Virus record (IMG/VR): IMGVR_UViG_3300005095_000173
Span: 1 to 64,000 of that record
Reading direction: 5' to 3' (one strand)
Length of the DNA: 64,000 bases
Origin: a virus
The notes under the pieces: model-generated
What the model was told of the DNA's origin: nothing
The model's input: the letters and a program-made list of their open reading frames with translations, nothing else
Databases searched by the model: none
Shown: in pieces, positions 40,692-42,234 of the stretch
How positions within the stretch are numbered: the first letter of the stretch is position 1
How the letters are laid out: each line of letters begins with the position of its first letter
Made by a program: the position numbers and the translations under genes

Positions 40692-42170
40692 CTAAAAGTC
40701 GTAACGTGGATTACCAATAACCTTCAACATCAACATAATAGGATTGAATAAACTCTCATCTAATTCCATTACTTGTTTCATAATCTCAGTAGAGTACCCA
40801 GAAATAAGCACTGCACCACTTTCATGCTCCCTTACTGGAAGATTTCCAGTGCTCCGAGACATAACATTCCAGTAAATAATTTTTGGCATTTCGTACCCAG
40901 CCGCCAAGAATTTTTGTTTCATTACTTCATGATTAGTTTTATCCCATTTGAAGGTAACTCGGTTACTGAAATAAGAATACCCAAATGTTGCCACATCAAA
41001 CTCCATATCGGAGATAATTAGCAGATACTTTGGCATTTCTTCTTGTTTAAGATTATGTTCTTTAGCATAAGATAGAATTAAGTCGAATGCCGCCTGCAAG
41101 TTGGTGTTTGCTACTTCTGCGTTCTCCAATAATGTTTTCACCTTCTGGTAAACATTTCCAGGAATGTGCAGTAACCGTGGGTTCTCGCTGAAAGTAAGAA
41201 CAATATCATTCCAAGGTGCAGGTTGCTTATCCGCAATATACACACCAAGAGAAACTGCAACGTCAAGAGCCGAAAGATTGCCACTAATCTTTGACTTCAT
41301 GCTTCCAGATAAATCAACCATTGGTAGAATAAACCCATCTGTTTTCTCTAATGTGTTAGGTAATTGTTCCCACTGCGTCAATAATACATTTAGTTCATCT
41401 GTAGTTAGTCGTGAGTCCATCATCTGAGAAGTAATGTGGTAAGGAAATGCTACCGATAAGTTCATTTTCTCTTCGCCACGTTTTACTTTTTCAATGTATT
41501 CACGATAACGATATTCATCATGGCGGAGAAAAGCATTTCGGTAACGAATCCCAGCAATAGATGGGACTTGAGAATAATTGATTTTATCCCATTCATTAGC
41601 AGACATCTGTTGTTCAACAGTCTTAGACAAACTCGAGATTAGCTTACGGTATTCTCGCATTGTTAATCCAAGATTGCGTGCGATTACTTTGGCCAACCCA
41701 GGCCACTTCTTTGACTTCTCCCGTGGAAGCCATTTTGCTAAAAGTCCATCTTGTAGCTCAAGACCACGTTGTACTTTCCAAAACCACTTGTCAGGAAACA
41801 GTACAAACATATCATCCCAACGCCCAATCTCAGGGATCTTATCAATAATGCGATAAAAAACATCTTCAGTAATAGCATTATTAATCTCAAGCCACTTTAG
41901 AAACTCTCGGAATACTCGACGCTCACCAGCACCGCCGCGGGCATCACGCACCCATAGCATTACACGAATAGTAAGATAGGGATCATCTTTCCATGCCCGA
42001 TCAAACATCTCCCATAATTTATCTACTTCCGCGGAGCGCATTGCTGGAATTTTGAAAAACAGATCTAGAACATGGTTGCCCGTAGAATTATAGGTTAGGG
42101 CGCCGTTCTCGGTTCGTCCAAATCCATTACGAATACGGTCTGTACTTTCGCTTTTGATTTCATTCCACAT
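40692..42170 (-). CDS. TROVE/Ro60-like + vWA protein (DUF2828 family)
   Basis: TENGA..STG..LDLFF, RDARGGAGER, GRWDD, AKWLPRE, VPS.A, MIDAS DLSGSM, ISDMEFD, IYWNV. Confidence 0.88.
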   Translation of the reverse strand: MWNEIKSESTDRIRNGFGRTENGALTYNSTGNHVLDLFFKIPAMRSAEVDKLWEMFDRAWKDDPYLTIRVMLWVRDARGGAGERRVFREFLKWLEINNAITEDVFYRIIDKIPEIGRWDDMFVLFPDKWFWKVQRGLELQDGLLAKWLPREKSKKWPGLAKVIARNLGLTMREYRKLISSLSKTVEQQMSANEWDKINYSQVPSIAGIRYRNAFLRHDEYRYREYIEKVKRGEEKMNLSVAFPYHITSQMMDSRLTTDELNVLLTQWEQLPNTLEKTDGFILPMVDLSGSMKSKISGNLSALDVAVSLGVYIADKQPAPWNDIVLTFSENPRLLHIPGNVYQKVKTLLENAEVANTNLQAAFDLILSYAKEHNLKQEEMPKYLLIISDMEFDVATFGYSYFSNRVTFKWDKTNHEVMKQKFLAAGYEMPKIIYWNVMSRSTGNLPVREHESGAVLISGYSTEIMKQVMELDESLFNPIMLMLKVIGNPRYDF

Positions 42171-42173
42171 ATC

Positions 42174-42234
42174 AGTACCTCCTTTGCTCTACCACAAGCA
42201 ATATGTTGGTTATAATAATTGCTGAAAAGGTACT
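42174..42234 (-). ncRNA. TROVE-associated hairpin unit B (leader; contains the SD)
   Basis: AGTACCTTTTCAGCAA...AGGAGGTACT, ending 3 nt before ATG. Confidence 0.7.

What the first reader, a model, noticed from the sequence alone, without database searches (positions are those of the whole stretch)
42168..42234. One array unit sequesters the Shine-Dalgarno of the TROVE gene: built-in autoregulation
Seen: unit B reads AGTACCTTTT-CAGCAA...AGGAGGTACT-GAT-ATG. Its 3' stem arm is the AGGAGGT ribosome-binding site, paired to the 5' arm (7 Watson-Crick pairs plus G-U extension). Inference: protein binding to the conserved motif stabilises the stem and shuts off its own translation, so protein level is titrated against the four free RNA units. 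This is independent support that the motif is the binding site of this protein.
Basis: partly seen in the sequence, partly recalled or inferred. Interest (0 to 1): 0.78.

Follow-up and report, generated by a model that had tools for sequence, protein, structure and literature searches.

The report
Partner-RNA hairpin masks Ro60-like gene's RBS
In this phage the ribosome-binding site of a Ro60-like RNA-binding protein gene is base-paired inside a copy of the small "handle" RNA that accompanies this protein family in hundreds of phages, so the protein plausibly limits its own synthesis, but related phages only place such a copy next to the site, not over it, and nothing has been tested.

Summary
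On the minus strand, unit B (42234-42174) closes with AGUACCUUUU/AGGAGGUACU. The 3' arm is the Shine-Dalgarno (AAGGAGGU, 42184-42177), 6 nt before the ATG at 42170.

- The gene (DUF2828+DUF7788/vWA) misses Pfam TROVE, but a confident model has the Ro60 fold.
- B is a genuine member of a widespread RNA class: closing stem, (U/A)C(A/C)GCAA after the 5' arm, terminal G.
- The class flanks this gene family in metagenomic phages, Felixounavirus, Listeria P100, mycobacteriophage LeBron, Campylobacter phages and Brachyspira contigs. All 119 significant model hits lie on the gene's strand.

The autoregulation reading is only partly supported.
- In 61 of 72 non-redundant homologous loci a unit ends within 45 nt of the start codon.
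- Stripped-down units are enriched at that position (15/61 against 7/123).
- However, the SD normally lies just after the stem, and 0 of 72 homologs sequester it as strongly as this phage.
- Other lineages have no leader unit.
- Within this phage, 10 of 65 genes have even less accessible SDs.

Binding, repression and its direction are untested. This scan has noted the same protein-RNA pairing, and handle copies on the RBS, on other DNA before. It is a new variant of autogenous control by ligand mimicry.

The parts
42501..42529 (-). Consensus sigma-70 promoter (TTGACA-17-TATAAT, TG-extended) that drives units E-D-C-B and the gene as one transcript
   Evidence: 12/12 match in the promoter scan; no terminator-like site between it and the gene
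42422..42482 (-). Unit E: closing stem AGCACCAC/GUGGUGCU, then UUCCGCAA
   Evidence: Unit finder; closing duplex -12.8 kcal/mol
42333..42397 (-). Unit D: closing stem UGGGGCAC/GUGCUCCA, then UUCCGCAA; the inner hairpin has a 7-nt anticodon-like loop AUUGUAA
42255..42312 (-). Unit C: closing stem UAGUGCCGCA/UGCGGCACUG, then UUUCAGCAA
42174..42234 (-). Unit B, the finding: 5' arm AGUACCUUUU (42234-42225), motif CAGCAA (42224-42219), 3' arm AGGAGGUACU (42183-42174), terminal G at 42173. It has the weakest closing duplex of the five units (-10.6 kcal/mol).
   Evidence: Sequence; MFE equals centroid; best hit of model R1 in the window; duplex energies
42177..42184 (-). Shine-Dalgarno AAGGAGGU of the Ro60-like gene; 7 of its 8 bases lie in the 3' arm of unit B
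   Evidence: Sequence; mean unpaired probability 0.138; +8.9 kcal/mol to free it
40692..42170 (-). Ro60-like gene, 492 aa: DUF2828 + DUF7788/vWA, phrog_850 'RNA-binding protein', MIDAS DxSxS at D286/S288/S290
   Evidence: Pfam; PHROGs; AF2 pLDDT 86.8, pTM 0.85; top 13 Foldseek PDB hits are all Ro60, E 1e-8 to 1e-6; invariant columns
40594..40653 (-). Unit A: closing stem AGGGGCACUU/AAGUGCCCCU, then CCGCAA. It lies between the gene's stop codon and tRNA-Arg.
   Evidence: second-best R1 hit in the window
40513..40586 (-). tRNA-Arg(UCU), 7 nt downstream of unit A
   Evidence: ARAGORN and Rfam
42237..42245 (-). Near-duplicate of unit B's 5' arm (AGUACUUUG). It can form a 6-bp hairpin with that arm and so is a possible weak anti-sequestor.
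   Evidence: -3.8 kcal/mol; present only upstream of B among the five units; the alternative fold is 4.3 kcal/mol above the MFE

Best explanation
Unit B is a genuine copy of the Y-RNA-like 'handle' RNA: a closing stem joining the two ends, (U/A)C(A/C)GCAA after the 5' arm, and a terminal G. This RNA partners the phage's Ro60-fold protein.

It is transcribed from the promoter at 42529-42501 as the last unit of a four-unit array and serves as the 5' leader of the protein's mRNA. Its 3' arm is the Shine-Dalgarno, so the folded unit hides the ribosome-binding site and throttles translation.

Most probably the protein binds this leader copy as it binds the free units and locks the RBS shut. That would be autogenous translational repression by ligand mimicry, as in thrS/ThrRS, ribosomal-protein operators and the MS2 coat-protein operator. 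Free units E, D, C and A would compete for the protein, so synthesis would track unoccupied RNA.

- **Shown:** the structure, membership of the RNA class, the Ro60 fold, co-transcription signals, and the family-wide habit of putting a unit at the RBS.
- **Inferred:** binding, repression, and titration by the free units.
For: - **Structure.** The 10-bp helix contains the SD and is both MFE and centroid. Opening the SD costs +8.9 kcal/mol.
- **Class membership.** Model R1, built from 33 units of phages only 37-41% identical in the protein, ranks B first and A second in the window.
- **Class linked to the protein.**
  - 119 of 119 significant hits are on the gene's strand, in arrays beside it.
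  - Units also lie beside the gene in Felixounavirus, Listeria P100, LeBron and Campylobacter F352, and in Brachyspira, Clostridia and Deferribacteraceae contigs.
  - The closing stem covaries: 57 compensatory cells across 5 of 8 pairs.
- **Protein is Ro60-like.**. Ro60 proteins bind stem-closed RNAs encoded next to their genes (PMC4201824, PMC12135203).
- **Placement at the RBS recurs.**
  - In 61 of 72 loci a unit ends within 45 nt of the start codon, and the SD most often begins 0-5 nt after the unit.
  - Handle-only units of 45 nt or less make up 15 of 61 proximal units against 7 of 123 distal ones (p = 4e-4).
  - These minimal units sit closer to the SD, median gap 1 nt against 5 nt.
- **Spacing within this phage.** B-to-ATG spacing is 3 nt, whereas the inter-unit spacers are 20-24 nt.
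- **Stem strength.** B has the weakest closing duplex of the five units, as a switchable stem would.
Against: - No binding or expression data exist.
- Base-paired SD masking is not conserved. None of 72 homologs has an SD as inaccessible as here (family median 0.50, minimum 0.164, window 0.138).
- The nearest relative with DNA available (L078, 47% identity) has a free SD 17 nt after its last unit.
- Felixounavirus and LeBron carry their units downstream and have no leader unit.
- Within this phage, 10 of 65 genes have an even less accessible SD, so masking as such is common.
- Juxtaposition could come simply from tight packing of a tandem array.
- A stem this strong may silence translation without any protein.
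- Xenopus Ro60 mainly contacts the 5' strand and partly opens the Y RNA helix (PMC4201824, PMC12135203), so binding could have the opposite sign.
- The seed units for the covariation count were chosen partly for having a stem.
Confidence: 0.42

Rival explanations
1. Constitutive attenuation with no feedback. The unit's closing stem simply sets a low, fixed translation rate. One transcript then yields several RNA units but only a few protein molecules, which sets the stoichiometry. The protein does not act on its own leader.
For: The stem alone costs +8.9 kcal/mol to open. SD masking is common in this phage, with 10 of 65 genes more masked. Homologs do not conserve the pairing, as expected for a tunable, lineage-specific expression setting.
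Against: It does not explain why the masking partner is a full handle unit with the conserved motif. It also does not explain why handle-only units are enriched at the RBS in other lineages.
Confidence: 0.24
2. Processing-coupled switch. Unit B is released as a free small RNA like the others. Cleavage at its 3' end, after CUG, cuts the SD away from the coding sequence, so each transcript gives either a B RNA or a translatable mRNA.
For: B has every feature of the free units, including the terminal CUG. In relatives the units are separated by short U-rich spacers that look like processing sites, and the units lie among tRNA genes that must themselves be processed.
Against: No RNA ends are known. 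B lacks the anticodon-like inner hairpin seen in D and A, which suggests it has lost the cargo part of a free unit. Cutting there would leave an essentially leaderless message.
Confidence: 0.12
3. No regulatory meaning. The overlap is a by-product of genome compaction, and the translated message comes from elsewhere. A transcript from the weak promoter-like site inside unit B (42239-42212) would lack the 5' arm and have a free SD.
For: A promoter-like site with 9 of 12 matches exists there. Arrays are tightly packed in relatives, so adjacency needs no function. The arrangement is unique to this phage in the sample.
Against: Such weak promoter matches are about as frequent as in shuffled sequence (11 found against 7.6 expected). 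The other spacers in this array are 20-24 nt, so there was no pressure to overlap. B's 3' arm is a perfect 8-nt SD at ideal spacing from the ATG.
Confidence: 0.12
4. Positive autoregulation. The protein grips the 5' strand and motif and pries the closing helix open, as Xenopus Ro60 does with Y RNA. That would release the SD and switch translation on.
For: Ro60 interacts mainly with the 5' strand, and inserting into the Y RNA stem separates the helix (PMC4201824, PMC12135203). An SD as tightly paired as this one needs some way to be opened.
Against: In most homologs the SD is already free beside the unit, so opening cannot be the general role there. Positive feedback on an RNA-binding protein is rare. 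The closing stem covaries, which argues that it is kept paired.
Confidence: 0.08

Closest known systems
Autogenous translational operators that mimic the protein's main RNA ligand: E. coli thrS operator/ThrRS, ribosomal-protein operators (S8, S15, L1, L20), MS2 coat-protein operator hairpin (own knowledge of the field)
   Same: A copy of the protein's normal RNA ligand sits on or against the RBS of the protein's own mRNA. Free ligand would compete with it. The MS2-type operator also contains the initiation region inside a hairpin.
   Different: No binding or repression has been shown here. The protein is a Ro60-fold ring rather than a synthetase, ribosomal protein or coat protein. The operator is a full 61-nt member of a tandem array co-transcribed with the gene, and the SD itself forms one strand of the ligand's closing stem.
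Ro60 (Rsr/TROVE2) with Y RNAs, including bacterial and phage YrlA/YrlB (Rfam RF02553; PMC4201824) and Thermus phage phiLo Ro60 with Yrl1/Yrl2 (PMC12135203)
   Same: The protein has the same ring-plus-vWA fold. The small RNAs are closed by a 5'/3' stem, carry a conserved 5'-strand motif and are encoded next to the gene. Long units in relatives carry the same permuted tRNA-like T and D arms and give YrlA hits of 28-42 bits.
   Different: Pfam TROVE is not matched. The RNA motif is (U/A)C(A/C)GCAA, not GNCGAAN0-1G or CGAA. The units are mostly short (about 55-65 nt) and come in arrays of 2-6. No Ro60 family member is reported, in the papers I could read, to carry a Y-RNA copy over its own RBS.
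Bas63 (Felixounavirus) gp130, a Ro60-like counter-defence protein against Ppl (PhageMaP preprint, PMC11482910)
   Same: Felixounaviruses carry a member of this protein family, 35% identical to the window's, next to tRNA genes. I assume, but did not check, that Bas63 gp130 is that member. The authors guessed that neighbouring 'tRNAs' might be Y RNAs.
   Different: In Felixounavirus momo the units lie downstream among the tRNA genes and none is at the RBS. The partner RNAs were not identified in that work.
Dictyostelium Class I RNAs (Rfam RF01414; PMC7919456)
   Same: Length of about 60 nt, a short stem joining the 5' and 3' ends, a conserved motif ending in ACAGCAA directly after the 5' arm, and a 3' CUG. 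RF01414 is the best non-tRNA Rfam hit, full-length, on units of three unrelated phages.
   Different: All scores are below Rfam's threshold: 19.7-26.7 bits against 41.5. Class I RNAs are eukaryotic, separately transcribed genes whose only shown direct binder is an RRM protein. I could not test whether dictyostelids have a DUF2828 protein.

Membership tests
Ro60/TROVE protein family | HEAT-repeat ring followed by a vWA domain (the Ro60 fold) | tested here: met
   AF2 model pLDDT 86.8, pTM 0.85. The top 13 Foldseek PDB hits are all Ro60 (phiLo, Xenopus, human, Deinococcus), full-length alignments, E 1e-8 to 1e-6, TM up to 0.61.
Ro60/TROVE protein family | Match to the Pfam TROVE domain (PF05731), or sequence similarity to solved Ro60 structures | tested here: not met
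   Pfam gives only DUF2828, DUF7788 and weak VWA_2, even at E <= 10. phmmer against PDB sequences finds no Ro60.
Ro60/TROVE protein family | MIDAS motif (DxSxS) in the vWA domain | tested here: met
   D286, S288 and S290 are invariant across 50 homologs.
Ro60/TROVE protein family | Physical binding of the adjacent stem-closed small RNAs | not testable with these tools
   Needs EMSA or RIP. Only co-occurrence is shown here.
YrlA / Y RNA (Rfam RF02553) | Reaches the Rfam gathering score | tested here: not met
   No YrlA hit on the window's units. Long units of relatives score 28-42 bits against a gathering score of 69.
YrlA / Y RNA (Rfam RF02553) | Ro60-binding motif GNCGAAN0-1G (bacterial) or GGUCCGA (metazoan) near the 5' end | tested here: not met
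   The conserved element is UUYC(A/C)GCAA or (U/A)CAGCAA instead. The YrlA motif definition is taken from PMC4201824.
YrlA / Y RNA (Rfam RF02553) | tRNA-like T and D arms in the effector module | tested here: not met
   Unit B has no such arms. They are present in long units of relatives such as L091, L138 and LeBron.
Autogenous translational operator by ligand mimicry | The operator resembles the protein's main RNA ligand | tested here: met
   B shares the stem, motif and terminal G with units E, D, C and A, and is the top hit of the class model R1. That the units are the ligand is itself inferred.
Autogenous translational operator by ligand mimicry | The operator overlaps or abuts the SD or start codon | tested here: met
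   Seven of the eight SD bases (42183-42177) lie within the 3' arm 42183-42174. The ATG begins 3 nt after the stem.
Autogenous translational operator by ligand mimicry | The arrangement is conserved in homologous loci | tested here: inconclusive
   A unit lies next to the RBS in 61 of 72 loci, with handle-only units enriched there. SD pairing as strong as here occurs in 0 of 72. Felixounavirus and LeBron have no leader unit.
Autogenous translational operator by ligand mimicry | The protein represses translation of its own mRNA through the operator | not testable with these tools
   Needs reporter fusions and toeprinting.
Dictyostelium Class I RNA (Rfam RF01414) | Reaches the Rfam gathering score (41.5 bits) | tested here: not met
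   Unit B scores 19.7 bits. Felixounavirus and Listeria units score 26.7 and 23.1 bits.
Dictyostelium Class I RNA (Rfam RF01414) | Short stem joining the 5' and 3' ends, with the 11-nt motif CCUUACAGCAA right after the 5' arm | tested here: inconclusive
   The stem and position are the same. In B the motif reads CCUUUUCAGCAA, which shares CCUU and CAGCAA but differs in between. The Class I description is from PMC7919456.

The most novel reading that the evidence does not exclude
The leader unit is a true occupancy sensor. The Ro60-like protein binds its own mRNA's handle only when the free handle RNAs are saturated, so the phage keeps protein and RNA at a fixed ratio. The same handle defines a cross-kingdom RNA class that includes the Class I RNAs of social amoebae, whose missing partner would then be a DUF2828-type Ro60-like protein. 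This phage's SD-in-stem leader would be the simplest in vivo reporter for that protein-handle interaction.
Probability: 0.12. Interest if true: 0.8.

Novelty: new variant of a known kind. Interest (0 to 1): 0.52.

Why it matters
Proteins of this family occur in more than 700 deposited phage genomes, including Felix O1-like phages, Listeria P100/A511-type phages and mycobacteriophages. In Bas63, a Ro60-like protein that I take to belong to this family (not checked here) counters a host defence system, yet its RNA partners are undescribed.

A leader in which the ribosome-binding site is one strand of the partner RNA's closing stem gives a ready genetic read-out, as a translational fusion, for whether and how the protein recognises that RNA. 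It also shows how an RNP could set its own protein-to-RNA ratio. If feedback is confirmed, it would be the first autogenous control described for a Ro60-family protein in the literature I could search. If it is not confirmed, the arrangement remains a clear example of lineage-specific RBS masking.

Tried and rejected
The contigs of the four closest proteins (P0002-P0005, 47-52% identity) could not be fetched, so conservation of the SD-in-arm design in near relatives is untested.
- **No near-identical phage.** Megablast of the locus against deposited phages found nothing.
- **Exact-word scans gave only chance hits.** Scans of viral contigs for unit B and unit D/A words returned 22 matches each, none with the gene or a 3' arm.
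- **The genome-contig scan gave no relative above 40% identity**.
- **The look-up of sequencing runs:** no RNA holder listed, no run listed. No reads were laid.
- **Rfam at gathering thresholds** finds only tRNAs in the window.
- **The strict window motif is barely enriched in the viral-contig loci** (mostly giant-virus-like, 27-39% identity): 47 hits against 20-30 in shuffles. The core had to be relaxed to C(A/C)GCA plus a stem.
- **Papers not available.** The supplementary tables of Chen et al. 2014, the Sim et al. 2020 review and the 2011 Class I RNA pull-down paper were not held. I could not check whether any DUF2828 phage was on the published YrlA list.
- **Anti-sequestor hairpin upstream of B.** It is real but weak (-3.8 kcal/mol) and does not fully free the SD, so I rejected it as a demonstrated ON state.
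- **Complex prediction was not used,** because it cannot take RNA.
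Full report
**What is there.** The window is 64 kb of a complete 76.8-kb phage record with terminal repeats. All features below are on the minus strand.
- A perfect sigma-70 promoter (42529-42501, 12/12) is followed by four 58-65-nt units: E 42482-42422, D 42397-42333, C 42312-42255 and B 42234-42174.
- A 492-aa gene follows (42170-40692), then a fifth unit (A, 40653-40594) and tRNA-Arg.
- No terminator-like site lies between the promoter and the gene.
- Each unit has an 8-10-bp stem joining its two ends, UUYC(A/C)GCAA immediately after the 5' arm, and a G after the stem; four of the five end in CUG.

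**The observation.** Unit B reads AGUACCUUUU-CAGCAA...AAGGAGGUACU-GAU-AUG.
- There are seven Watson-Crick pairs (AGUACCU/AGGUACU), extended by U.G, U.G and U-A. The SD AAGGAGGU (42184-42177) lies almost entirely in the 3' arm. The ATG starts 3 nt after the stem.
- RNAfold returns this helix as both MFE and centroid (-20.2 kcal/mol, z = -2.17).
- Forcing the SD open costs +8.9 kcal/mol.
- The start codon is right: M1 is invariant in the alignment with the four nearest homologs.

**Is it more than chance?** There are two answers.
- As plain SD masking, no. In a uniform -100/+30 folding of all 65 ORFs with a good SD, this gene's SD has unpaired probability 0.138. That is well below the median of 0.40, but it ranks only 11th lowest.
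- As a unit lying over the SD, yes. A covariance model (R1) built only from units of distant phages puts its best hit in the whole window exactly on 42236-42172 and its second-best on unit A. Both are weak (15.2 and 14.3 bits, E about 0.2-0.4).

**What the protein is.**
- Pfam gives DUF2828 + DUF7788 with a weak VWA_2 hit. TROVE is not matched, even at E <= 10. PDB sequences give nothing. PHROGs files it as phrog_850, 'RNA-binding protein'.
- An AlphaFold model from a 50-sequence alignment is confident (pLDDT 86.8, pTM 0.85). Its top 13 Foldseek PDB matches are all Ro60: Thermus phage phiLo, Xenopus, human and Deinococcus Rsr. These are full-length alignments with E from 1e-8 to 1e-6.
- The MIDAS residues D286, S288 and S290 are invariant.
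- So 'TROVE gene' is right at the level of fold, not of the Pfam family.

**What the units are.** tblastn finds the protein in 711 deposited phages. Collection scans gave 76 viral, 80 metagenomic and 24 genome-contig loci, none above 47% identity.
- In the metagenomic loci the gene is preceded by arrays of units with consensus UAGGNNNN-GUUC(A/C)GCAA...NNNNCCUG.
- With R1, 119 hits at E <= 0.01 fall in 85 loci. All are on the gene's strand. Nearly all are upstream and a few are directly downstream.
- The closing stem pairs in 100% of cells, with 57 compensatory cells in 5 of 8 pairs. I chose the seeds partly for having a stem, so the percentage paired is partly circular. The strand and position bias is not.
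- The same units lie beside the gene in characterised phages and bacterial assemblies:

| Source | Units | Position relative to the gene |
|---|---|---|
| Felixounavirus momo | 4 | Downstream, among tRNA genes |
| Listeria P100plus | 3 | Upstream |
| Mycobacteriophage LeBron | 3 | Downstream |
| Campylobacter F352 | 2 | Upstream |
| Brachyspira, Clostridia, Deferribacteraceae and other assemblies | Usually 1-3 | Mostly upstream |

- Longer units contain permuted tRNA-like T and D arms. They give sub-threshold but significant YrlA hits: L138 42 bits, E 6e-6; LeBron 39.8 bits, full length.
- Short units carry anticodon-arm-like hairpins.
- The architecture matches Ro60/Y RNA systems, where Ro60 grips a conserved 5'-strand motif near a stem formed by the RNA ends (PMC4201824, PMC12135203). 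The motif here is different.
- This is good comparative evidence that stem plus motif is the module recognised by this protein. Binding itself is not shown.

- I re-called start codons using SD and N-terminal alignment, then located the last unit in 72 non-redundant loci.
- In 61 loci a unit ends within 45 nt of the start codon. The SD most often begins 0-5 nt after the unit's terminal G, for example ...UUAACCUG|AAAGGAAGUAUC|AUG.
- Handle-only units of 45 nt or less (stem, motif and a short loop) make up 15 of 61 gene-proximal units but only 7 of 123 distal ones (Fisher p = 4e-4). These minimal units sit closer to the SD, median gap 1 nt against 5 nt (p = 1e-4). Related loci are not fully independent, but at least five different stem families contribute.
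- The SD is almost never inside the stem. Overlap is 3-4 nt in L001/L003 and 0-2 nt in L088, L089, L127, L128 and L170.
- In the same folding set-up the 72 homologs have median SD accessibility 0.50 and minimum 0.164. None is as low as the window's 0.138.
- The nearest relative with DNA available (L078, 47% identity) has a free SD 17 nt beyond its last unit.
- Felixounavirus and LeBron have no leader unit at all.
- Placing a handle at the RBS is therefore a frequent habit of the family. Pairing the SD into the handle is specific to this phage.

**Mechanism.** The best-supported reading is autogenous control by ligand mimicry. The leader copy competes with the free units for the protein, and a bound leader cannot recruit the 30S subunit.
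- In most relatives this would work by steric exclusion next to the SD, as in the thrS operator.
- Here the fold itself also hides the SD, as in the MS2 operator.
- Supporting details in this phage:
  - B-to-ATG spacing is 3 nt against 20-24 nt between units.
  - B has the weakest closing duplex (-10.6 kcal/mol against -12.1 to -17.6 for the others).
  - B lacks the anticodon-like inner hairpin of D and A.
- Against it:
  - Nothing has been measured.
  - The stem alone may suffice for repression.
  - Tight array packing could explain adjacency.
  - Ro60 is known to open the Y RNA helix, so the sign of any effect is uncertain.
- I put 0.42 on feedback repression, 0.24 on constitutive attenuation, 0.12 on a processing-coupled switch, 0.12 on no regulatory meaning and 0.08 on positive feedback.

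**Relation to earlier work.**
- Published phage Y RNAs concern canonical TROVE proteins (PMC4201824, PMC12135203).
- The PhageMaP preprint reports that Bas63 gp130 is Ro60-like, counters Ppl and lies next to tRNA genes. It only guesses at the RNAs (PMC11482910).
- I found no paper on DUF2828-associated RNAs and no Rfam family that reaches threshold.
- This scan has already noted the same protein-RNA pairing on other DNA: 91 notes in at least 79 genomes. It has also noted handle copies on the RBS of Ro60-like genes (e1-5370357, e1-5750612, e1-5863081).
- My independent counts agree with those notes. They add that this phage is the extreme case, with a full-size unit and the SD inside the arm.

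**Limits.**
- No sequencing run was listed.
- No close relative exists in the accessible collections.

Noticed in passing
window 42501-43048 (- strand): Four consensus sigma-70 promoters lie in a row: 43048-43020 (11/12), 42819-42791, 42695-42667 and 42529-42501 (each 12/12). Each drives one small product: a 57-aa ORF with a 5' hairpin, tRNA-Thr, tRNA-Asn, and the unit array with the Ro60-like gene.
   Followed up: partly
window 42237-42245 and 42142-42148 (- strand): A near-duplicate of unit B's 5' arm (AGUACUUUG) lies 2 nt upstream of B. It can form a 6-bp hairpin with B's 5' arm (-3.8 kcal/mol), a possible anti-sequestor that none of the other four units has. In the MFE of a longer stretch, this upstream segment pairs instead with sequence just downstream of the start codon, so the helix encloses the initiation region.
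   Followed up: partly
window 42174-42234; L158:3387-3441; L159:1148-1203: Rfam's Dictyostelium Class I RNA model (RF01414) is the best non-tRNA match, full-length, on short units of three unrelated phages: 19.7, 26.7 and 23.1 bits against a threshold of 41.5. The length, end-joining stem, ...ACAGCAA motif after the 5' arm and 3' CUG are all shared. I could not test whether dictyostelids carry a DUF2828 protein.
   Followed up: partly
window 42333-42397 (unit D), 40594-40653 (unit A); A3 alignment of relatives: Inner hairpins look like anticodon arms with 7-nt loops: AUUGUAA in D and CUUGAAA in A. In relatives the loops include CUUGUAA, CUUGAAA, CUUCUAA, CUGCUAA and CUGAUAA. They may be mimics or decoys of different tRNA anticodon arms. 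Unit B has no such loop.
   Followed up: partly
L091:808-925, L138:2801-2913, L160:2983-3104, L158:3865-3989: Long units hold a permuted tRNA-like core (anticodon-like arm, T arm, a stem, then D arm) inside the same handle. They give YrlA (RF02553) hits of 28-42 bits, below the gathering score of 69.
   Followed up: partly
L078:2358-2423; L175-L185 around 1400-1430: In the closest relative with DNA available, and in Brachyspira contigs, the last unit's closing stem is followed directly by a run of 7-9 U. This resembles an intrinsic terminator and could limit read-through into the gene.
   Followed up: no
L159:4336-4488 (Listeria phage P100plus): An RtcB-type RNA ligase gene lies about 1.3 kb downstream of the Ro60-like gene. 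This recalls the rsr-yrlBA-rtcBA operon of Salmonella.
   Followed up: no
L008-L076 (viral-contig loci, several labelled GVMAG), about 40-60 nt upstream of the gene: Giant-virus homologs of the gene are preceded by AAAAATTGA-type motifs, like mimivirus early promoters, and have no SD. A conserved 49-nt stem + CCGCAA hairpin recurs about 1.5 kb away on the opposite strand in L006, L007, L025, L040 and L067.
   Followed up: no
window 53163-53231 (+ strand): The third-best hit of model R1 in the window (13.1 bits, E 0.72) reads UUGGAUUUAGUUCAGCAG... and has two non-standard pairs. It is probably a chance match, and I did not examine its context.
   Followed up: no
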